From Gammaproteobacteria bacterium (GTDB taxonomy: Bacteria > Pseudomonadota > Gammaproteobacteria > Tethybacterales > Persebacteraceae): 24,000 bases of DNA. Below are positions 4,601-11,750 of the stretch, piece after piece. Made by a program: the position numbers and the translations under genes. Location of the stretch: NCBI GenBank assembly GCA_020027345.1, contig JAHRAH010000140.1:1-24000 (forward strand). Reading direction: 5' to 3'. The notes under the pieces are model-generated. The model searched no databases. It worked only from the letters and a program-made list of their open reading frames with translations, and had not been told where the DNA came from. The first letter of the stretch is position 1. Each line of letters starts with the position of its first letter.

Positions 4601-5341
4601 ATGCAGGCACTGCTCGTCAAGGATTTGCATAAGGCGTATCTTTCCGCCCCCGTCCTGCGCGGGATAGACCTCGCCGTGCAAGCTGGCGACTCTTTCGGCT
4701 TCGCCGGCGCGAACGGCGCCGGAAAAAGCACCCTCCTCAAATGCGTGCTCAACTTCATCCACTACGAGCGCGGCGAAATATCCTTTTTCGGCATCTCCGC
4801 AAAAAACCGCGAGGCGCGCAAGCGCATCGCCTTTTTGCCCGAGCGCTTTATCCCCCCCTACTACCTCAGCGGCGAGCAATTCCTCCGCCTGATGATGAAA
4901 CTGCAGGGCGAAACCTACGCCCGCCCCGCCGCCGAAGAAATGCTCGCCGGGCTGGATTTGGACCTCACCGCCCTCGCAAAATCCGTCCGCTCTTTCTCCA
5001 AGGGTATGACGCAAAAACTCGGGCTCGCCGCCTGCTTTCTCGCCAAGCGCGATTTCTACCTGCTGGACGAACCCATGAGCGGGCTGGACCCGAAAGCCCG
5101 CGCCCTCGTCAAGCGGCAATTTATAAAACTCAAAGAACGCGGCGCCACTTTGTTTTTTACCTCGCACGCCCTCGCCGACATTGACGAAATGTGCGCGCGC
5201 GTCGCCGTCCTCCACGACGGAAGAATATGCTACGACGGCGAACCCGCCGCGATGCGCGCCGCTTTTTCCGGCGCCGAAACGCTGGAAGAAGCGTATCTCC
5301 GCGCCATCGGCGACAAAAACGGAAACGCAAAAAATGATTGA
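4601..5341 (+). CDS. ABC transporter ATP-binding protein (ABC-2/NatA-like), no adjacent permease
   Basis: Walker A GANGAGKST, signature-like FSKGMTQK, Walker B FYLLDEP and H-loop TSHAL are present. ATG at 4601 is in the frame of track ORF 4046-5341. The upstream part of that ORF is an Arg-rich shadow over gph. Confidence 0.85.
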   Translation: MQALLVKDLHKAYLSAPVLRGIDLAVQAGDSFGFAGANGAGKSTLLKCVLNFIHYERGEISFFGISAKNREARKRIAFLPERFIPPYYLSGEQFLRLMMKLQGETYARPAAEEMLAGLDLDLTALAKSVRSFSKGMTQKLGLAACFLAKRDFYLLDEPMSGLDPKARALVKRQFIKLKERGATLFFTSHALADIDEMCARVAVLHDGRICYDGEPAAMRAAFSGAETLEEAYLRAIGDKNGNAKND

Positions 5342-6620
5342 CCCGTCGCTGCTGCGGGGCGACTTCGCGGCGGCGGCAAAAAACTTCGCACGCCGCGGAC
5401 TGCATATATCCGAACGCGAATTCGCCGCCGCCGGCGAACTCCGCAAAAACGCGCAAAACAAATGCGAAACCCTGCGCGCAAAACGCAACGAACTCTCCCG
5501 CGAAATCGGAAAAGCAAAATCCGAAGGCGAAAGCGATGCCGCAAAAAAACTCCTCGCCCAAGCCGCCGCCCTCGGAGACGATTTGCAAAATGCCGAAAAA
5601 GAATTCGCCAAGGCGCGCGGGGACGAAGCGCGCCTGCTCCACGAACTGCCGAATCTTCTGCAGGAGACCGTCCCCGAAGGCGCGACTTCCGAAGACAACA
5701 AAGAACTGCGCCGATGGGGGGGAGCGCCCGTTTTTGATTTCGCCCCCGCCGACCACGCCGAACTCGGCGCCGCTTTGGAAATGATGGATTTCGCCCGCGC
5801 CGCAAAAATGGCATCCGCAAGATTCGTCGCGCTCTCCGGCGAACTCGCGCAAATGCACCGCGCCCTCGCCCAGTGGATGATGGACTTGCATTCGCAAAAG
5901 CATGGTTACCGCGAAGCGTATCTGCCGATGCTCGTCAACCCCCGCGCCGTTTTCGGCGCCGGGCAACTGCCGAAATTCGCAAACGAACTCTTCTTCGCCG
6001 AACGCGATTCGCTCTATCTGATTCCCACCGCCGAAATACCCGCGACAAACTGGGCGCGCGAAAGAATCATCCCCGAAAGCGAACTGCCAATTAAAATTGT
6101 CGCGCACACCCCGTGCTTTCGCCGCGAAGCCGGCGCCCACGGAAAGGACACCCGCGGAATGCTCCGCCAGCACCAGTTTGACAAAGTGGAACTCGTCCAT
6201 ATAACCGCCCCCGAAAACTCCGAAAAAGCGCACGAAGAAATGACCGCACACGCCGAAACCGTTTTGCAGGAACTGCAACTGCCCTACCGCGTAGTCGTCC
6301 TCTGCGCCGGCGACACCGGATTCGCCGCCGCAAAAACTTACGATTTGGAAGTGTGGCTGCCCGGACAAAACACCTACCGCGAAATATCCTCCTGCAGCAA
6401 CTGCGGCGACTTTCAGGCAAGAAGAATGCAAACGCGCGTCAAAAACAAGGACGGAAAAATAAACCTAGTCCACACGCTCAACGGTTCCGGCGTAGCCGTC
6501 GGCCGCGCCCTCATCGCCGTCATGGAAAACCACCAAACCAAAGACGGCAACATAACCGTCCCCAACCCCCTGCGCCCCTACATGCAAAACAAAAAAACAA
6601 TCCCCTCCCCCCCCCAATGA
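5334..6620 (+). CDS. serS: Seryl-tRNA synthetase
   Basis: Starts MIDPSLLRGDF, followed by an N-terminal coiled-coil arm and class II motifs (FRRE.G..G.DTRGM.R.HQF.KVE, GSG.AVGR...A..EN.Q). ATG 5334 overlaps the ABC gene stop by 8 nt (ATGATTGA). Confidence 0.93.
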   Translation: MIDPSLLRGDFAAAAKNFARRGLHISEREFAAAGELRKNAQNKCETLRAKRNELSREIGKAKSEGESDAAKKLLAQAAALGDDLQNAEKEFAKARGDEARLLHELPNLLQETVPEGATSEDNKELRRWGGAPVFDFAPADHAELGAALEMMDFARAAKMASARFVALSGELAQMHRALAQWMMDLHSQKHGYREAYLPMLVNPRAVFGAGQLPKFANELFFAERDSLYLIPTAEIPATNWARERIIPESELPIKIVAHTPCFRREAGAHGKDTRGMLRQHQFDKVELVHITAPENSEKAHEEMTAHAETVLQELQLPYRVVVLCAGDTGFAAAKTYDLEVWLPGQNTYREISSCSNCGDFQARRMQTRVKNKDGKINLVHTLNGSGVAVGRALIAVMENHQTKDGNITVPNPLRPYMQNKKTIPSPPQ

Positions 6621-6657
6621 AAAACAACCCAACCCCCCCTCCATCTTTGATGGAAAA

Positions 6658-6710
6658 CAAATTAACCCCCCCCCCATCTCCGATGGGGGGGGTGGGGGGG
6701 GGGAAACCCC
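6658..6710. repeat. Poly-C/poly-G hairpin element, copy B2 (preceded by degenerate copy at 6628-6657)
   Basis: Layout is CAAATTAAC, C10-ATC (6666-6678), TCC, GAT-G8 (6682-6692), T, G10 (6694-6703), AAA, CCCC. A degenerate copy with the stem TCCATC-TTT-GATGGA lies at 6640-6654. Confidence 0.85.
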
Positions 6711-6715
6711 TCGCT

Positions 6716-6826
6716 CTCGTTACACCTCTCCAGAGGTGTAACGCATCCAACAATAGCGGGCGTCCACGCCCGCTCAAACCAGCGTCATTCCCGCACTCTC
6801 CCAAAAGGCGGGAATCCAGCAAATTA
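6716..6826. repeat. Mosaic intergenic repeat, copy A2 (three-hairpin composite)
   Basis: Perfect palindrome GTTACACCTCT-CC-AGAGGTGTAAC at 6719-6742. Hairpin AGCGGGCG-TCCA-CGCCCGCT at 6755-6774. GTCATTCCCGC-N13-GCGGGAATCCAGCAAATTAA with the core at 6787-6815. Confidence 0.85.
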
Positions 6827-6870
6827 ATTGGAACGGCGGAGACACCGTCCCCCAAAAACAACCCCCAAAA

Positions 6871-6922
6871 CAAATTAACCCCCCCCCCATCTCCGATGGG
6901 GGGGGCTGGGGGGGGGAAACCC
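6871..6922. repeat. Poly-C/poly-G hairpin element, copy B3
   Basis: Layout is CAAATTAAC, C10-ATC (6879-6891), TCC, GAT-G8 (6895-6905), CT, G9 (6908-6916), AAA, CCC. Confidence 0.85.
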
Positions 6923-8347
6923 AAACCCCAAAAAATCCGCACCCGCTTCGCCCCCTCCCCCACCGGAAACCTCCACATCGGCGGCGCCCGCACGGCCCTC
7001 TTCAATTGGATATGCGCCCGCCAAACCGGCGGAGAATTCATCCTCCGCTTTGAAGACACCGACACAGCCCGCAGCACAAAAGAATTCGCCGAATCCATTA
7101 AAAAAGATTTGCAGTGGCTCGGACTGCACTGGGACGGCGAACCCCAAAAACAAAGCGCGCGCGCGAACCGTCACCGCGAACTCGCCGAACAACTGTTGCA
7201 AAGCGGCGCCGCATACCGCTGCTATTGCGCCCCCGAAGAACTCGCCGCAATGCGCGAAGCCCAACTCGCCCGCGGCGAAAGCCCCCGCTACGACCGCCGC
7301 TGGCGCGATTCCAAAAAAAGCCCCCCGCCCGGAATAAAACCCGCGCTGCGTTTGAAAGCCCCGCTAAGCGGCGAAAGCGTTTTTGCCGACGCCGTCAAGG
7401 GAAAAATGACCGTCGCCAATTCCGAACTGGACGATTTTGTTTTGCTGCGCGCAAACGGCGCCCCGACTTACAATCTGGCGAATGTCGCCGACGATATGGA
7501 CGGCGAAATAACGCACATCATCCGCGGCGACGACCATCTGATGAACACGCACCGTCAATTGCAATTGTTTTCCGCCCTCGGAAAAAAGCCGCCGGTTTTC
7601 GCGCACCTGCCGATGATTCTCGCGCGCGCGCAAAACGAAAGCGGCGAAACAATAAAGGACAAAAAAGGCGAAACGGTATACGAAAGAATGTCCAAGCGCG
7701 CCGCCGCCGCCGGCATCGCCGAATGCCGCGAAAACGGATTTTTGCCGGAAGCCGTCGTCAACTACCTCGCGCGATTGTCGTGGGCGAAAGGCGACGCCGA
7801 AATCTTTGATGCCAACTTTCTGCTCGCCCACTTCTCGCTCGCGACGGTAACCCCCTCCCCCGCGCGCCACAACCCCGAAAAAATGCAATGGCTCAACCGC
7901 GAACATCTGCACAACCTCCCCCCCGAAGAAGCAAACCGCCGCGCAAAAAAACTCACAAACGGCGAACTGCAAATCAGCGACGAAGCCGCCGCATTAATCC
8001 TCCCCCGCGCCGAAACCCTGCGCGACTTCGCCCACCGCGCAAAATTCTTCCAAACCGCCCCTCCCCCGAACAAGGAATTACTTGTGCAACACCCCCTCCC
8101 CGATTCCTTCCCCGCCCTAATCGCCGCATTGGATGCAATCCCCGAAAGCGAATGGCATCCCCCCGCCATCAAAACCGCCATCCAAAAAACCGCAAAAGCG
8201 TCCGGATTAAAATTCCCCCAACTCGCAATGCCCCTCCGCGTCCTCCTAACCGCCCAAAAAGAATCCCCCGACATAACCCAAACCACCGCCCTCCTAGGCA
8301 AACCCGAAACCTTAAAACGGCTGTCGGCTTTTTCCGAAATCGGATAA
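6896..8347 (+). CDS. gltX: Glutamyl-tRNA synthetase
   Basis: KIRTRFAPSPTGNLHIGGARTALFNW carries the HIGH-type motif, and MSKR is a KMSKS-like motif. GluRS-like sequence continues throughout. The only in-frame start near the conserved N-terminus is ATG 6896, inside the B3 hairpin. The track ORF from 6353 overlaps serS and reads through the repeats. Confidence 0.85.
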   Translation: MGGAGGGKPKPQKIRTRFAPSPTGNLHIGGARTALFNWICARQTGGEFILRFEDTDTARSTKEFAESIKKDLQWLGLHWDGEPQKQSARANRHRELAEQLLQSGAAYRCYCAPEELAAMREAQLARGESPRYDRRWRDSKKSPPPGIKPALRLKAPLSGESVFADAVKGKMTVANSELDDFVLLRANGAPTYNLANVADDMDGEITHIIRGDDHLMNTHRQLQLFSALGKKPPVFAHLPMILARAQNESGETIKDKKGETVYERMSKRAAAAGIAECRENGFLPEAVVNYLARLSWAKGDAEIFDANFLLAHFSLATVTPSPARHNPEKMQWLNREHLHNLPPEEANRRAKKLTNGELQISDEAAALILPRAETLRDFAHRAKFFQTAPPPNKELLVQHPLPDSFPALIAALDAIPESEWHPPAIKTAIQKTAKASGLKFPQLAMPLRVLLTAQKESPDITQTTALLGKPETLKRLSAFSEIG

Positions 8348-8356
8348 AATCCCGGA

Positions 8357-9178
8357 ATGCAGTCGCAGCACGGAAAAAAATGGACGCGGAAAGAAACGCT
8401 GGCGGCGTTTAACCATTACTTTCGCATTCCCTTCGGCAAATTTCACCGTAGCAATCTGGAAGTTATTCGGATTGCCGGATTGATGGGGCGCAGCCCCGGC
8501 TCGGTGTCAATGAAATTGTGCAACCTCGCCAGCCACGACGCCAAAATCAAAGGCAAAGGCAAGGCGGGATTGAAACACGCGTCCAAAATGGACGCGCAAG
8601 TGTGGGAGGAGTTTTACGCCAACCCTGACATACTTGTCCGCGAAAGCGAACAAGCCGCGGCCGCGCTGGAAAACCAAACGGTTGAGGAACACGCGCTCGC
8701 GCATTGCTTAACCGGAACTGCGGACATCCCCGAAGGGCGGGAGCAGGAGCGGGTTGTCCGGGTTCGGATTCATCAATCGTGGTTCCGCCGCGCAATTCTT
8801 TCCGACTACCGCAACCGTTGTTGTGTTACGGGGCTTGCCGTGCCGGGATTGCTGAACGCCAGCCACATCGTCCCGTGGAGCGAAAACACCAAAAATCGGC
8901 TGAACCCGGAAAATGGGCTATGCCTAAATATCCTGCACCACCGCGCTTTTGACCTGGGGATGATGACAATCACGCCGGACGGCGCGATAAAAATATCCCC
9001 CTCCCTGCGCGCCGCCGCGCGCCCCAACTCCCGCGCATCCTTCATCGCCGAAGTCCACGGCAAAAAAATAGAAATGCCCCGCAACCACCCGCCCTCCCCC
9101 GAATTCCTGAAATACCACAACCGCCAAATCTTCCAAGAAAATCTCGGCCCCGGCGGAACACCGCATTTGCCATTGTAA
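8357..9178 (+). CDS. HNH endonuclease family protein (HNH_2-type, putative restriction-like nuclease)
   Basis: 273-aa ORF. The C-terminal half reads HQSWFRRAILSDYRNRCCVTG....LNASHIVPW.....RLNPENGLCLN.LHHRAFD.G, typical of the HNH_2 family. The N-terminal region KWTRKETLAAFNHYF looks like a small helical or wHTH domain. It starts 9 nt after the gltX stop. Confidence 0.85.
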   Translation: MQSQHGKKWTRKETLAAFNHYFRIPFGKFHRSNLEVIRIAGLMGRSPGSVSMKLCNLASHDAKIKGKGKAGLKHASKMDAQVWEEFYANPDILVRESEQAAAALENQTVEEHALAHCLTGTADIPEGREQERVVRVRIHQSWFRRAILSDYRNRCCVTGLAVPGLLNASHIVPWSENTKNRLNPENGLCLNILHHRAFDLGMMTITPDGAIKISPSLRAAARPNSRASFIAEVHGKKIEMPRNHPPSPEFLKYHNRQIFQENLGPGGTPHLPL

Positions 9179-9265
9179 ACCCACGCCTTTACAAGCATTT
9201 GTCTGCGGTGTTTGCAGTCAAACCCCATAGGAGGGCGGATTTTTGTTTTGAGAGACGAATTGTTG

Positions 9266-9271
9266 TATAAT
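9266..9271 (+). promoter_or_regulatory. Candidate -10 box (TATAAT) with strong Shine-Dalgarno AGGAGG at 9279-9284
   Basis: The sequence TTGTATAATGTGCATAGGAGGATATCCGATG contains a perfect -10 hexamer, and AGGAGG lies 6 nt before ATG 9291. The surrounding 110-nt spacer is visibly AT-richer than the rest of the window. Confidence 0.35.
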
Positions 9272-9290
9272 GTGCATAGGAGGATATCCG

Positions 9291-10274
9291 ATGCTGAAAC
9301 AACCCTTGGGAAAATTAATGTCTGTCAACTTGCAGGATGTGTGGGAAACGGAAGCCGGGGGCTTTACGCCCTGGCTGGCGGCGCACATTGGAATTCTCGC
9401 CGACGCCATTGGCTTGGAACTCGAGAACCCGGAAAAAGAAAAACAGGTGGGTGCGTTCAGTGCGGACATTTTGTGCAAGGATGCCAGCGACGGCTCGCTA
9501 GTGGTGGTGGAAAACCAAATGGGGAAATCCGACCACAAACACCTGGGGCAAATTCTGACTTACGCGACGGGCTTGCACGCAAAAACAGTTGTCTGGATTG
9601 CGCGTGAATTTCGCGAAGAACACCGTGCCGCGCTGGACTTGCTCAACGCCAACATGAAGGAGGAATACCGTTTTTTTGGGTTGGAAGTGGAGTTGTGGAA
9701 AATCGGCGATTCCAAACCCGCGCCAAAGTTGAGCGTCGTTGTCAGCCCCAACGATTGGAGCAAGGATGTGTTTCGCGCAAGCAAGGGTGAAATGTCCGAG
9801 TCCGAAGCGCGGTGGTTGCTTTACTGGACGGAGTTTGCTAAGTACCTGGACGAATCGGCTTTTCATCTTTCCGCTCGGAAGCCGCGTCCTAGCAATTGGA
9901 TGAATTTCGCAGTTGGGCGCAGCGGCGTAAAAATATCCGCTTGCTGGAAAAACAGTGGGCGCCGATTGGAAGTGCAACTTCGCGCAACCGACCAAAACGC
10001 CGAGGCGTTTTACGGTTTGCTTGCCGAAGAGGCGCAGGCGATTGACAGGCAAATCGGCTTTTCGCTGGATTGGGAAGCCGGGCGCCCCGCCTCCGGCAAA
10101 AAAAGGGCGTATATTTGCGCTGGCAAGGACGACGCCGACATCAAAGTCAAAAGCAAGTGGAAAAACCAGCATCAATGGCTGGCGGACACCGTGCGGAAAT
10201 TTGACAGCGTTTTTCGCGAGCGCGTCAAAGAACTAAACCCCGAAGATTGGGATGCCAATCAAGAGAACGATTGA
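9291..10274 (+). CDS. PD-(D/E)xK (NucS/DUF91-like) nuclease-fold N-domain fused to a DUF4268-like C-domain
   Basis: The N-terminal motif FSADILCKD...LVVVENQMGKSDHKHLGQILTYA is the D...ENQ...HLGQ..TY signature of NucS-like PD-(D/E)xK modules. The C-terminal about 170 aa (WLLYWTEF..YL....R....NWMNF..G..G......W) resembles DUF4268. ATG 9291 has a canonical SD. The track start at 9270 lies inside the -10 box. Confidence 0.8.
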   Translation: MLKQPLGKLMSVNLQDVWETEAGGFTPWLAAHIGILADAIGLELENPEKEKQVGAFSADILCKDASDGSLVVVENQMGKSDHKHLGQILTYATGLHAKTVVWIAREFREEHRAALDLLNANMKEEYRFFGLEVELWKIGDSKPAPKLSVVVSPNDWSKDVFRASKGEMSESEARWLLYWTEFAKYLDESAFHLSARKPRPSNWMNFAVGRSGVKISACWKNSGRRLEVQLRATDQNAEAFYGLLAEEAQAIDRQIGFSLDWEAGRPASGKKRAYICAGKDDADIKVKSKWKNQHQWLADTVRKFDSVFRERVKELNPEDWDANQEND

Positions 10275-10285
10275 CGGCGAGAGCG

Positions 10286-10313
10286 AGGCAGGACTAGCCG
10301 CCCTGTCCTGCTT
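10286..10313 (+). terminator. Weak hairpin downstream of the DUF4268-like gene
   Basis: GCAGGAC (10288-10294) pairs with GTCCTGC (10305-10311), extendable by two pairs, with a 10-nt loop. It is followed only by TTT, so it is not a strong intrinsic terminator. Confidence 0.25.
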
Positions 10314-10397
10314 TCCGCCGTTGTTGGTGGAGAGCATCGCCGTGCGGGGGGATAAAACCTTCGGGCATTGGGAACGCAGAGTATAACCGCCAAACGG

Positions 10398-10486
10398 CGG
10401 AGAGGGAGGGATTCGAACCCTCGATGGAGTTTTTGCCCCATACTCCCTTAGCAGGGGAGCGCCTTCAGCCGCTCGGCCACCTCTCC
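10398..10486 (-). tRNA. tRNA-Ser (anticodon GCU)
   Basis: The reverse complement reads GGAGAGGTGGCCGAGCGGCTGAAGGCGCTCCCCTGCTAAGGGAG..long variable arm..GAGGGTTCGAATCCCTCCCTCTCCG. It has a 7-bp acceptor stem, a D-loop with GG, the anticodon loop CT-GCT-AA, a long extra arm typical of Ser, and a T-loop TTCGAAT. CCA is not encoded. Confidence 0.9.
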
Positions 10487-10496
10487 TTTTTATATT

Positions 10497-11750
10497 CTAT
10501 TCCCCGCGCGGGGTTTGTGTTGTTTCTTCTTCGGCGCCGTTTTCCAGGCCGAAGGCGTCGTGCAGCAAACGGACGGCGTCGTCCACGCGCGATTCTTCAA
10601 TCACCGCGGATATTTTTATTTCCGAAGTGGAAATCATTTGTATGTTTATTCCGCCTTCGGCGAGCGCGGCGAACATTTTCGCGGCGACACCGGCGTGCGA
10701 GCGCATTCCGACTCCGACTACGGAAACTTTGCCGATGCCTTCGTCGCCGGTAACCGTCTCCGCGCCGATATCCCCGCCCGCGCCGCGCGCGCATTCCAAA
10801 GCCGCCGCATAATCGCCGCGGTCCACGGTAAAGGAAAAATCCGTGCGCCCGTCGTGCGATATGTTTTGCACTATCATATCCACATTGATGTTTTCCGCGC
10901 CCAGCCGCGCCAGCAAACGCCCGGCGACGCCCGGACGGTCGGGAACGCGCACGAGAGTTATTTTCGCCTCGCCCCTGTTGAAAGCGATGCCGGTGATAAT
11001 CGGTTCCTCCATTGCGCTGCTCCTGCTGCATAAAACAAGCGTGCCGCCGTTTTTGTTTTCTTCCGCCGACGACAAAACGCGCAGCGGCACGCGGTATTTT
11101 CCGGCGAAGGCCACCGCGCGCGGCTGCAATACTTTGGAACCGAGCGACGCCATTTCCAGCATTTCCTCAAAATGCACGGTCTTAAGCCGCCGCGCTTTTT
11201 CGCAAACGCGCGGGTCGGTCGTGTGGATGCCGTCCACATCGGTGTAGATTTGGCATTCGTCGGCGGCGAGCGCGGCGGCGAGCGCGACCGCAGTCGTGTC
11301 CGAGCCGCCGCGCCCGAGCGTTGTCGTGTCGCCGTTCGCCGCGCGCCCCTGAAAGCCGGCGACGACGGGCGTGATTCCTTCCGCGACCGCCGCGCGCAAA
11401 GCCGCCGTGTCTATGCCGAGTATGCGCGCTTTGCCGTGCGCTTCGTCGGTGAGAATGCCCGCCTGTTTGCCGCTGAAACTCTTCGCCGCGACGCCGATTT
11501 TGCGCAGTGCCAAAGCCGTCAGTCCGGCGCAAATCTGTTCGCCGCTCGCCAAAACCGCGTCGTATTCGCGCGCGTCGTCCGCGCCCCATTCTTCGCAGGC
11601 GGCGAGCAGGCGGTCGGTCTCGCCGCCCATCGCCGAAACGACGACGACGACATCCGCGCGCGCGCGCGACTCCCGCACCCGCCGCGCCGCCGCCGCGATG
11701 CGCGCGGAATCCCCCACGGAAGTCCCCCCGAATTTTTGCACAACCAGCAT
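10497..11750 (-). CDS. lysC: Aspartate kinase (monofunctional, two ACT domains)
   Basis: Motifs present: MLVVQKFGGTSV, VVVVSAMGG.TD, TTLGRGGSDTTA, IYTDVDG..T.DPR. The C-terminal ACT repeats include an internal MEEPIITGIAF. Stop TAG is at 10497-10499, 10 nt from the tRNA-Ser 5' end. Confidence 0.93.
   Translation of the reverse strand: MLVVQKFGGTSVGDSARIAAAARRVRESRARADVVVVVSAMGGETDRLLAACEEWGADDAREYDAVLASGEQICAGLTALALRKIGVAAKSFSGKQAGILTDEAHGKARILGIDTAALRAAVAEGITPVVAGFQGRAANGDTTTLGRGGSDTTAVALAAALAADECQIYTDVDGIHTTDPRVCEKARRLKTVHFEEMLEMASLGSKVLQPRAVAFAGKYRVPLRVLSSAEENKNGGTLVLCSRSSAMEEPIITGIAFNRGEAKITLVRVPDRPGVAGRLLARLGAENINVDMIVQNISHDGRTDFSFTVDRGDYAAALECARGAGGDIGAETVTGDEGIGKVSVVGVGMRSHAGVAAKMFAALAEGGINIQMISTSEIKISAVIEESRVDDAVRLLHDAFGLENGAEEETTQTPRGE

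What the first reader, a model, noticed from the sequence alone, without database searches (positions are those of the whole stretch)
8357..10397. Compositionally foreign two-nuclease islet (HNH + PD-(D/E)xK/DUF4268-like) next to tRNA-Ser: candidate defence module
Two predicted nucleases sit between the housekeeping gltX and the tRNA-Ser(GCU)/lysC pair. The first is an HNH_2-type protein with an N-terminal helical domain. The second has a NucS-like D...ENQ...HLGQ..TY PD-(D/E)xK module fused to a DUF4268-like domain. The second gene uses AAG, GAG, CAG, GAT, TTG and GTG freely, whereas the neighbouring genes almost never do. It has its own TATAAT and a perfect AGGAGG SD in an AT-richer spacer, and it ends about 120 nt from the 3' side of a tRNA gene, a classic island insertion point. 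The first two-thirds of the HNH gene are also atypical, while its last third is host-like, suggesting a recombination junction near 8990. Paired nucleases with sensor-like extra domains are a recurrent architecture of restriction-like and abortive-infection systems. I do not recognise this pairing as a named system.
Basis: partly seen in the sequence, partly recalled or inferred. Interest (0 to 1): 0.65.

Follow-up and report, generated by a model that had tools for sequence, protein, structure and literature searches.

The report
Two unrelated defence nucleases in hotspot
Two intact nuclease genes lie side by side in a variable anti-phage gene slot between gltX and a tRNA-Ser gene, but they are two separate, already catalogued single-gene defence families and not a new two-gene system.

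Summary
The sequence facts hold. ORF A (8357-9178) is an HNH_2 nuclease with an all-helical N-terminal domain. ORF B (true start probably 9291, end 10274) is a NucS/RecB-like PD-(D/E)xK nuclease fused to DUF4268. tRNA-Ser(GCU) lies 121 nt downstream.

Both proteins match PADLOC models over their full length: ORF A the 'HNH' model (6e-90) and ORF B 'PDC-S11' (4e-109).

The pairing is not conserved. No ORF A relative occurs near 80 ORF B homologues, and no ORF B relative near 80 ORF A homologues.

Relatives with the same flanks carry different cargo after gltX: HNH without B, PDC-S11 without A, Type I or Type ISP R-M, Abi_alpha, IetAS or HerA. The gltX / tRNA-Ser-lysC interval is therefore a defence hotspot. 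The closest homologues of each gene sit in this same slot in relatives.

There is no integrase and no att repeat. 'Compositionally foreign' is overstated, because the compositional outliers are serS and gltX.

The most likely mechanism is two independent restriction-type nucleases. ORF B is probably modification-dependent, like the DUF4268 nuclease MdgA. ORF A is a mostly MTase-less HNH enzyme whose family stays intact beside decayed C5-methylase genes.

Verdict: new members of known kinds, of modest interest.

The parts
6950..8347 (+). gltX (glutamyl-tRNA synthetase), the conserved upstream flank of the variable slot. The exact start is uncertain.
   Evidence: Pfam tRNA-synt_1c and Anticodon_2. 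It is 61-66% identical to GltX of relatives that share the ligase-DUF525-rpe-HAD-ABC-serS-gltX synteny.
8357..9178 (+). ORF A: HNH_2-family restriction-type endonuclease, 273 aa. It starts 9 nt after the gltX stop codon.
   Evidence: PADLOC HNH model PDLC04132 at 6.4e-90 over the full length, and PDLC03546 at 1e-44. Pfam HNH_2. 1625 homologues. All 29 invariant family residues are present. Model pLDDT 88.
8357..8740 (+). ORF A N-terminal all-helical domain (about residues 1-128), a presumed DNA or modification reader of unknown fold class.
   Evidence: Helices H11-116 in the model. Conserved W9, N19, Y21, R45 and N56. No significant PDB match by sequence, profile or fold.
8819..8971 (+). ORF A HNH (beta-beta-alpha-Me) catalytic core, residues 155-205.
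   Evidence: Pfam HNH_2. Invariant C155, C156, H170, N186 and N191, and near-invariant H194. Nearest structures are VcaM4I 6yex (profile E 2.6e-17; Foldseek 4.5e-5) and TagI 6ghs.
8987..9178 (+). The last ~63 codons of ORF A, with a serS/gltX-like C-rich, G-poor third position. This is a compositional break inside the gene.
   Evidence: G3/(G3+C3) is 0.18 here against 0.48 upstream. The best split is at 8987, and 1 of 300 permutations was as extreme. Homologues in relatives do not show the same sharp break.
9266..9283 (+). TATAAT (9266-9271) and AGGAGG (9278-9283) ahead of ORF B, within the 112-nt A-B spacer.
   Evidence: Read directly from the sequence. The scan found no full sigma-70 site. 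ORF B homologues in relatives also carry their own TTGACT-N17-TATAAT and GGAGG (L171/L172), or TATAAT and GGAGG (L173).
9291..10274 (+). ORF B: PDC-S11-family protein, 327 aa. It is a RecB/NucS-like PD-(D/E)xK nuclease fused to DUF4268.
   Evidence: PADLOC PDC-S11 model PDLC04911 at 3.7e-109, matching residues 11-321 against profile positions 3-314 of 318. More than 6355 homologues. Model pLDDT 87.
9315..9743 (+). ORF B nuclease domain (about residues 9-151), with E50, D59, E74-N-Q76 and Q87xxxY91.
   Evidence: These residues are invariant in the family alignment. Foldseek to NucS 2vld gives E 8e-4 and rmsd 3.0. The NCBIfam NucS match is weak: residues 49-104, 15 bits, far below the cut-off of 216.
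9822..10223 (+). ORF B DUF4268 domain.
   Evidence: Pfam PF14088 at 7.6e-26. The fold resembles YbjN / type III chaperone-like alpha-beta domains (6vu7 E 1.7e-4, 5fr7).
10396..10486 (-). tRNA-Ser(GCU). Together with lysC (10497-11750, minus strand) it forms the conserved downstream flank of the slot.
   Evidence: ARAGORN and Rfam. The same tRNA bounds the slot in relatives L172 and L173. lysC in L172 is 77% identical.

Best explanation
The stretch holds two independent single-gene restriction-type nucleases. They are parked next to each other in a variable defence slot between gltX and tRNA-Ser(GCU)/lysC in an undersampled proteobacterial lineage.

ORF B:
- It is a full-length member of PADLOC candidate family PDC-S11.
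- Its N-terminal RecB/NucS-like PD-(D/E)xK domain (E50, D59, ExQ at 74-76, QxxxY at 87-91) is the cutter.
- The C-terminal DUF4268 domain is the likely DNA or modification reader.
- It most likely acts alone as a modification-dependent (Type IV-like) nuclease on phage DNA.

ORF A:
- It is a member of a large HNH_2/COG3440 'putative restriction endonuclease' family, with an uncharacterised helical N-terminal reader domain and an HNH cutter.
- In this genome it has no methylase partner. It probably works as an MTase-independent restriction nuclease, co-transcribed with gltX.

Shown: domain content, family membership, intact catalytic motifs, lack of co-occurrence, and the hotspot.
Inferred: the anti-phage role, dependence on DNA modification, and which domain reads the DNA.
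For: -
- The two families do not co-occur. There were 0 true ORF A relatives near 80 ORF B homologues, and 0 ORF B relatives near 80 ORF A homologues.
- Relatives with the same upstream synteny (GltX 61-66% identical) carry different cargo after gltX: HNH plus other genes (L082), an MTase remnant plus HNH plus HerA (L086), Abi_alpha plus Type ISP R-M (L087), Type I R-M (L088/89), Type ISP R-M (L090), PDC-S11 plus a three-gene cluster then tRNA-Ser-lysC (L171/172), and PDC-S11 plus IetAS then tRNA-Ser (L173).
- ORF B homologues have no conserved partner. About 15% sit between hsdS and hsdR of Type I R-M operons.
- DUF4268 is fused to GmrSD Type IV enzymes (PMC4619093).
- The DUF4268 nucleases MdgA and MdgB protect E. 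coli against T4 but not unmodified T4-GT7. MdgA E77A is inactive (PMC12366544). The ORF B catalytic Glu is E74.
- Most ORF A family members lack a C5 methylase nearby: only 1 of 17 loci with at least 1.5 kb on both sides had one.
- Intact HNH genes sit beside truncated C5 methylase genes in L086 and in N. gonorrhoeae.
- The nearest solved nuclease domains are the modification-dependent enzymes VcaM4I and TagI.
Against: - No experiment exists on these exact proteins.
- PDC-S11 is an unpublished candidate category.
- C5 methylases and Vsr are the most frequent immediate neighbours of ORF A family members (9 and 6 of 123 neighbour ORFs). Close homologue L085 has an operon-like M-to-R arrangement. 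A classical Type II role for ORF A therefore remains possible.
- Only 24 kb of the genome was seen, so a cognate methylase could lie elsewhere.
- The reader domains of VcaM4I and TagI (EVE, SRA) are absent from ORF A.
Confidence: 0.7

Rival explanations
1. The two nucleases form one cooperative two-gene defence system. One would sense and the other execute, or the two would cleave together.
For: They are adjacent on the same strand, 112 nt apart, with no predicted terminator between them. Both are nucleases with extra domains.
Against: - Co-occurrence is zero in 80 plus 80 loci from diverse taxa.
- Each gene occurs alone in this same slot in relatives.
- ORF B and its homologues carry their own promoter-like and SD elements.
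- PADLOC treats both as single-gene entities (PMC13656390).
Confidence: 0.05
2. ORF A is the restriction half of a Type II C5-methylase/HNH R-M system that has lost its adjacent methylase. It would be protected by a methylase elsewhere in the genome, or be on its way to decay.
For: - Close homologue L085 has a 360-aa C5 methylase ending 8 nt before the HNH gene.
- L086 keeps a 44-aa N-terminal methylase remnant (DLFSGAGGFSLG) between gltX and HNH.
- C5 methylase, Vsr and other Type II enzymes are the commonest neighbours of the family.
- The related PADLOC profile PDLC03546 is described as a 'Type II restriction enzyme'.
Against: - Most family members have no methylase nearby.
- The HNH gene is intact, with all invariant residues, in three methylase-less or methylase-dead settings: the window, L082/L086 and gonococcus. 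This is not expected for an orthodox REase that has lost its protection.
- In several loci another REase (HpaII, EcoRII or Eco47II type) is already present beside the methylase.
Confidence: 0.25
3. One or both genes are housekeeping DNA-repair enzymes and not defence genes. ORF B would be a NucS/EndoMS-like mismatch endonuclease. ORF A would be a Vsr-associated nuclease linked to 5-methylcytosine damage.
For: The ORF B nuclease fold resembles NucS. ORF A family members neighbour Vsr in 6 cases. ORF A sits directly behind gltX in three lineages.
Against: - ORF B lacks the NucS N-terminal domain and scores 15 bits against a cut-off of 216.
- Both genes are patchily present among close relatives and are replaced by R-M, Abi or Iet systems.
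- ORF B homologues occur inside Type I R-M operons and on plasmids.
Confidence: 0.07

Closest known systems
PADLOC phage-defence candidate PDC-S11 (single-gene candidate; DUF4268 proteins)
   Same: ORF B matches three PDC-S11 profiles end to end (E 4e-109, 3e-104 and 1e-80). Like the candidate it is a single gene with no conserved partner.
   Different: Nothing structural differs. The category itself is an unpublished computational candidate (PMC13656390), so 'known' here means catalogued, not characterised.
MdgA / MdgB modification-dependent nucleases (Cell Host Microbe 2025, PMC12366544)
   Same: Both are described as a predicted nuclease plus DUF4268, acting as a single gene and widespread across phyla. 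The MdgA catalytic Glu is at position 77, and the ORF B Glu is at 74. MdgA degrades glucosyl-hmC T4 DNA far better than T4-GT7 DNA.
   Different: The authors say MdgA lacked homology to known defences, whereas ORF B is recognised by PADLOC.
GmrSD-type Type IV restriction enzymes carrying DUF4268
   Same: They share the C-terminal DUF4268 accessory domain, which is predicted to bind DNA (PMC4619093, PMC5714182).
   Different: ORF B has a RecB/NucS-like PD-(D/E)xK nuclease. It has no DUF262 (ParB-like NTPase) or DUF1524 (His-Me) domain.
NucS / EndoMS mismatch endonuclease
   Same: The nuclease fold is the same, with matching D...ExK-type and QxxxY motifs.
   Different: ORF B has no NucS N-terminal DNA-binding domain, and K is replaced by Q (E74-N-Q76). 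The score is far below the family cut-off. The DUF4268 fusion and the variable, defence-linked genomic context also differ.
HNH_2 / COG3440 restriction endonucleases; PADLOC 'RM type HNH'
   Same: ORF A gives a full-length match to PADLOC HNH model PDLC04132 and has the HNH_2 catalytic core. Sources name family members 'putative restriction endonuclease'.
   Different: No member of this subfamily with this helical N-terminal domain was found to be biochemically characterised. The specificity and the Type II versus Type IV nature are unknown.
Modification-dependent HNH enzymes VcaM4I (EVE-HNH), TagI (SRA-HNH) and PT-DNA-dependent ScoMcrA-like enzymes
   Same: These are the nearest solved or curated relatives of the ORF A nuclease domain. 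They are also solitary, methylase-less enzymes.
   Different: The ORF A N-terminal domain is all-helical, with no EVE, SRA or sulphur-binding domain. NCBIfam PT-DNA_restrict scores 62 bits against a cut-off of 180, and only the C-terminal two-thirds aligns.

Membership tests
PADLOC PDC-S11 | Full-length match to the family profile | tested here: met
   PDLC04911 at 3.7e-109, residues 11-321 against profile positions 3-314 of 318. Two further PDC-S11 profiles also match.
PADLOC PDC-S11 | Stand-alone gene with no obligatory partner | tested here: met
   Immediate neighbours in 61 loci fall into 88 Pfam families. The commonest are hsdS (9) and hsdR-type genes (about 8). No conserved partner was found.
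PADLOC PDC-S11 | Demonstrated anti-phage activity | not testable with these tools
   The candidate class is described as unpublished (PMC13656390). A preprint that mentions PDC-S11 six times could not be opened.
Pfam DUF4268 (PF14088) | Score above the gathering threshold | tested here: met
   91.2 bits against a cut-off of 27.
MdgA-like modification-dependent nuclease | Nuclease domain plus DUF4268 in one polypeptide, with a catalytic Glu near residue 77 | tested here: met
   PD-(D/E)xK domain plus DUF4268. The invariant Glu is E74. The description of MdgA is from PMC12366544.
MdgA-like modification-dependent nuclease | Sequence homology to MdgA itself | not testable with these tools
   The MdgA sequence sits in Table S7 and BioProject PRJNA1262520, neither of which is held.
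MdgA-like modification-dependent nuclease | Restricts modified (T4) DNA but not unmodified (T4-GT7) DNA | not testable with these tools
   This needs an experiment.
NucS/EndoMS | NCBIfam equivalog score and the two-domain NucS architecture | tested here: not met
   15.2 bits against a cut-off of 216. Only residues 49-104 align. Fold similarity is limited to the nuclease domain.
RecB-like PD-(D/E)xK nucleases | Motifs E, D, ExK and QxxxY | tested here: inconclusive
   E50, D59, E74 and Q87xxxY91 are invariant, but the Lys is replaced by an invariant Gln76. ExQ variants exist in BglII (own knowledge). Activity was not tested.
GmrSD Type IV | DUF262 and DUF1524 domains | tested here: not met
   Pfam reports only DUF4268 in ORF B.
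Pfam HNH_2 / PADLOC HNH (RM type HNH) | HNH_2 core above threshold and a full-length PADLOC HNH profile match | tested here: met
   47.4 bits against a cut-off of 21. PDLC04132 at 6.4e-90, residues 5-262.
Type II restriction-modification system | Cognate DNA methyltransferase encoded next to the endonuclease | tested here: not met
   The gap between gltX and ORF A is 9 nt. No methylase domain occurs in any major ORF of the 24-kb window. tblastn with a C5 methylase gave only noise. A methylase elsewhere in the genome cannot be excluded.
PT-DNA-dependent restriction endonuclease (NF045808, ScoMcrA-like) | Score above the curated cut-off, including the N-terminal sulphur-binding region | tested here: not met
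   62.4 bits against a cut-off of 180. Only profile positions 100-284 align.
Type IV EVE/SRA-HNH enzymes (VcaM4I, TagI) | PUA-superfamily (EVE/SRA) modified-base reader domain | tested here: not met
   The model's N-terminal half is all-helical. The alignments to 6yex and 6ghs cover the HNH part.
tRNA-targeted integrative genomic island | Integrase gene and a direct repeat of the tRNA 3' end at the far border | tested here: not met
   No integrase occurs between gltX and lysC. The tRNA 3' segment occurs once in the window. No flanking repeats were found.

The most novel reading that the evidence does not exclude
The ORF A subfamily (a conserved helical reader domain plus HNH_2) may not be an orthodox Type II enzyme. 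It may be an uncharacterised class of methylase-independent nuclease that is genomically tied to C5-methylase/Vsr loci yet outlives them.

Intact copies sit beside truncated methylases in L086 and in N. gonorrhoeae, and methylase-less copies sit directly behind gltX in the window and in L082. The family could be a new Type IV-like reader, or a guard that responds to loss or alteration of cytosine methylation.

In the window it might complement the neighbouring DUF4268 nuclease by covering a different class of DNA modification.
Probability: 0.2. Interest if true: 0.55.

Novelty: new member of a known kind. Interest (0 to 1): 0.3.

Why it matters
The finding removes a false lead. The 'two-nuclease system' is a chance juxtaposition of two catalogued single-gene families.

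It leaves three useful points:
- The gltX / tRNA-Ser(GCU)-lysC interval is a well-defined defence hotspot in a poorly sampled proteobacterial lineage. At least eight different cargo types were seen, and some have no PADLOC or Pfam match. That makes it a good place to look for new systems.
- ORF B adds a clean, intact example of the RecB/NucS-like nuclease plus DUF4268 architecture. Recent functional work links this architecture to restriction of hypermodified phage DNA.
- The ORF A family repeatedly stays intact next to dead C5 methylases. This is an inexpensive, testable clue that the widespread, uncharacterised HNH_2 subfamily is not an orthodox Type II enzyme.

Tried and rejected
- Co-occurrence was tested with tblastn and with profile HMMs in both directions, and was negative.
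- I looked for att-like repeats of the tRNA and for an integrase, and found none.
- The sigma-70 and terminator scan gave no full promoter and nothing useful.
- Rfam on the window found only the tRNA.
- Sequence and profile searches of the PDB for ORF B found nothing. For the ORF A N-terminal domain they gave only insignificant CAP-like hits (E 0.2-0.6).
- I tried to obtain the MdgA sequence or accession from the paper, but no supplements are held.
- I tried twice to read the H-NS preprint that mentions PDC-S11, and it is not held.
- I considered R.NmeDI as a characterised relative of the neisserial pheS-pheT HNH gene. I rejected it because R.NmeDI is a different 351-aa protein.
- I considered a recombination junction at about 8990. 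The compositional break is real. Relatives do not share it, and protein conservation runs through it, so its cause stays open.
- 'Foreign composition' as evidence of recent transfer was rejected, because the closest homologues of both genes lie in the same slot in relatives.
Full report
**What is at the coordinates**

The + strand carries two long ORFs between gltX and a tRNA gene. They are 8357-9178 (273 aa, ORF A) and 9270-10274 (334 aa, ORF B). tRNA-Ser(GCU) lies at 10396-10486 on the minus strand and is followed by lysC at 10497-11750, also on the minus strand.

ORF A has a Pfam HNH_2 core at residues 155-205. ORF B has a DUF4268 domain in its C-terminal half.

Family alignments and profile matches for ORF B start at the second ATG, 9291. 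That codon is preceded by AGGAGG (9278-9283) and TATAAT (9266-9271). I therefore take 9291-10274 (327 aa) as the gene.

The antisense ORFs in the region have no support. The + strand products have thousands of homologues.

**Family assignment**

Against PADLOC-DB, ORF A matches the 'HNH' model PDLC04132 end to end (6.4e-90). It also matches a second HNH model described as a Type II restriction enzyme (1e-44). ORF B matches three PDC-S11 models end to end (3.7e-109, 3.1e-104, 1.2e-80).

PADLOC's 'RM type HNH' is a single-gene HNH category, and the PDC classes are unpublished candidates (PMC13656390).

In NCBIfam, ORF A scores 62 bits against the phosphorothioate-dependent restriction model, whose cut-off is 180. 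ORF B scores 15 bits against NucS, whose cut-off is 216. Neither is a member of those families.

**Structures**

Both AlphaFold models are confident, with pLDDT of 87-88.

In ORF B, the N-terminal alpha/beta domain superposes on the nuclease domain of P. abyssi NucS (2vld, E 8e-4, rmsd 3.0 over 114 columns). The DUF4268 domain resembles YbjN / type III chaperone-like folds (6vu7, E 1.7e-4).

The family alignment shows invariant E50, D59, E74-N75-Q76, H82, H84, Q87 and Y91. This is the RecB-type motif set (E, D, ExK, QxxxY) with Gln in place of Lys. An ExQ active site is known from BglII (my own knowledge).

In ORF A, the first ~120 residues are all-helical and have no significant structural or sequence match. 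The HNH part is closest to the modification-dependent enzymes VcaM4I (6yex; profile E 2.6e-17) and TagI (6ghs). All 29 invariant positions of the ORF A family are present, including C155, C156, H170, N186 and N191. H194 is near-invariant.

**Is the pair a system?**

No.
- I fetched 80 species-level genome loci around ORF B homologues (1.11 Mb, many phyla) and 80 metagenome loci around ORF A homologues (0.36 Mb).
- tblastn and profile HMMs found no ORF A family member near any ORF B homologue. The only hit was a 55-bit HNH-domain match about 6 kb away in L041.
- No ORF B homologue was found near any ORF A homologue.
- The immediate neighbours of ORF B homologues fall into 88 Pfam families. The commonest are hsdS (9 of 117 ORFs) and hsdR-type proteins (about 8). 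Roughly 15% of ORF B homologues are therefore embedded in Type I R-M operons, and there is no conserved partner.
- The neighbours of ORF A homologues fall into 77 families, led by C5 DNA methylase (9 of 123), Vsr (6), PIN (4), and HpaII, EcoRII and Eco47II endonucleases.

**The locus in relatives**

The closest GltX proteins are only 61-66% identical, so the lineage is undersampled. The best named hit is a gammaproteobacterial MAG, and Nitrosospira is at about 47%.

These relatives share the upstream order ligase, DUF525, rpe, HAD, ABC, serS, gltX with the window. What follows gltX differs in each:

| Locus | Cargo after gltX |
|---|---|
| L082 | HNH (57% identical to ORF A), then a 351-aa unknown protein, an E1/ThiF-like protein and two small ORFs |
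| L086 | 44-aa C5-methylase remnant, HNH (60%), then HerA (PADLOC 9e-131) |
| L087 (near-identical flanks to L082) | Abi_alpha, then Type ISP R-M |
| L088/L089 | Type I R-M with a SLFN/AlbA_2 gene |
| L090 | Type ISP R-M |
| L171/L172 | PDC-S11 (53% identical to ORF B), then a three-gene cluster, tRNA-Ser(GCU) and lysC (77% identical) |
| L173 | PDC-S11 (55%), IetS/IetA, then tRNA-Ser(GCU) |

The gltX / tRNA-Ser-lysC interval is therefore a defence hotspot. The best database hits for both window genes are the copies in this same slot in relatives. Each gene occurs there without the other. This argues for long residence or exchange within the lineage, and against a recent arrival from far away.

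There is no integrase and no repeat of the tRNA end. The tRNA is a flank, not a shown integration site.

**Composition**

Those two genes are the outliers, with G3/(G3+C3) of 0.27 and 0.23 and GAG in 1 of 37 and 0 of 35 Glu codons. lysC, PhyH, ligase, CoA-transferase and others range from 0.35 to 0.54 and use GTG, TTG, CAG and GAT freely.

ORF B has the lowest G+C in the window (53.7%) and ties with the ligase gene for the least typical codon choice. It is mildly atypical and not outside the window's range.

The break inside ORF A near 8990 is real. The best split is at 8987, and 1 of 300 permutations was as extreme. Homologues in relatives lack it, and protein conservation continues through it. 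A recombination junction is possible but unproven.

**Mechanism of ORF B (inferred)**

- DUF4268 is a recurrent accessory domain of GmrSD Type IV enzymes and is predicted to bind DNA (PMC4619093, PMC5714182).
- Two DUF4268-containing nucleases, MdgA and MdgB, were selected from metagenomes. They protect E. coli against T4 but not T4-GT7.
- Purified MdgA degrades T4 DNA much better than unmodified DNA, and MdgA E77A is inactive (PMC12366544).
- ORF B has the same described architecture, and its catalytic Glu is at position 74. I could not obtain the MdgA sequence, so membership is untested.

I therefore propose that ORF B is a stand-alone modification-dependent nuclease.

**Mechanism of ORF A (inferred, less certain)**

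There are two readings.

(a) It is the endonuclease of a C5-methylase/HNH Type II pair.
- L085 has a methylase ending 8 nt before the HNH gene.
- C5 methylase and Vsr are far more frequent among its neighbours than any other family.

(b) It is a methylase-independent, possibly modification-dependent nuclease.
- Only 1 of 17 loci with at least 1.5 kb on both sides has a C5 methylase nearby.
- The window and L082 have none.
- L086 keeps only a 44-aa methylase stub (DLFSGAGGFSLG...) before an intact HNH gene.
- N. gonorrhoeae carries Vsr, a truncated C5 methylase and an intact 249-aa homologue (41% identical) between pheS and pheT.
- This gonococcal locus is probably NgoAXIII, whose methylase is truncated in all strains (PMC6789123).

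An orthodox restriction enzyme should not stay intact after losing its methylase, so I favour (b). I give (a) about 0.25.

**Verdict**

The 'paired system' and 'foreign island at a tRNA' readings are not.

The stretch contains new members of two known, catalogued kinds, sitting in a defence hotspot. Interest is modest. The two leads worth following are the hotspot itself and the persistence of the HNH gene beside dead methylases.

Noticed in passing
window 6654-6709 and 6867-6922 (also 6594-6643): A 56-nt element occurs twice (96% identical, 213 nt apart) between serS and the catalytic part of gltX. It contains a C10 run, a 9-nt spacer and a G8-G10 run, so it could form a hairpin. The long gltX ORF and gene call (576-664 aa) read through both copies, so the true gltX start is probably downstream of them, near 6935-6950.
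   Followed up: partly
window 5340-8347 and 8987-9178: serS, gltX and the last 63 codons of ORF A share an extreme C-over-G bias at third codon positions (G3/(G3+C3) 0.18-0.27). The other 14 window genes range from 0.35 to 0.54. serS and gltX of relatives do not show the bias (0.40-0.56). The cause is unknown.
   Followed up: partly
L171 9120-11214 and L172 1932-3915: A three-gene minus-strand cluster (148 aa, DUF4325 104 aa, 409-446 aa) fills the hotspot between the PDC-S11 gene and tRNA-Ser in a relative. It has no PADLOC hit, and only the DUF4325 gene has a Pfam hit. It is a candidate uncharacterised defence system.
   Followed up: partly
L082 8865-12145: In another relative the HNH gene is followed by a 351-aa protein with no Pfam or PADLOC match. 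After that come a 486-aa ThiF/E1-like protein (weak PADLOC E1-E2 hits, 1e-17) and two small ORFs (130 and 131 aa). This may be a ubiquitin-like conjugation defence module.
   Followed up: partly
L086 1304-3998: A 44-aa N-terminal stub of a C5 methylase (motif I only) lies between gltX and an intact HNH gene. A HerA-type ATPase (PADLOC PDLC04105, 9e-131) follows 39 nt downstream. Whether HNH and HerA work together there is unknown.
   Followed up: partly
L175 (N. gonorrhoeae NZ_CP119142.1 369359-380099), 3956-5747: Between pheS and pheT lie Vsr, a truncated C5 methylase and an intact 249-aa HNH_2 protein that is 41% identical to ORF A. This is probably the NgoAXIII locus. The record is a 2.17-Mb chromosome filed as a plasmid in PLSDB, and this region has no annotation there.
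   Followed up: partly
L173 1899-4450: IetS of an IetAS system in the hotspot is split into two ORFs (431 and 413 aa) that match the N- and C-terminal halves of one PADLOC IetS profile. This is either a frameshift or a natural split. A transposase (rve) lies just beyond the tRNA-Ser.
   Followed up: no
window 10288-10312: A GC-rich hairpin (GGCAGGAC...GTCCTGC) lies 14 nt after the ORF B stop codon, without a clear T-run. It may be a terminator. The scan's criteria did not detect it.
   Followed up: no
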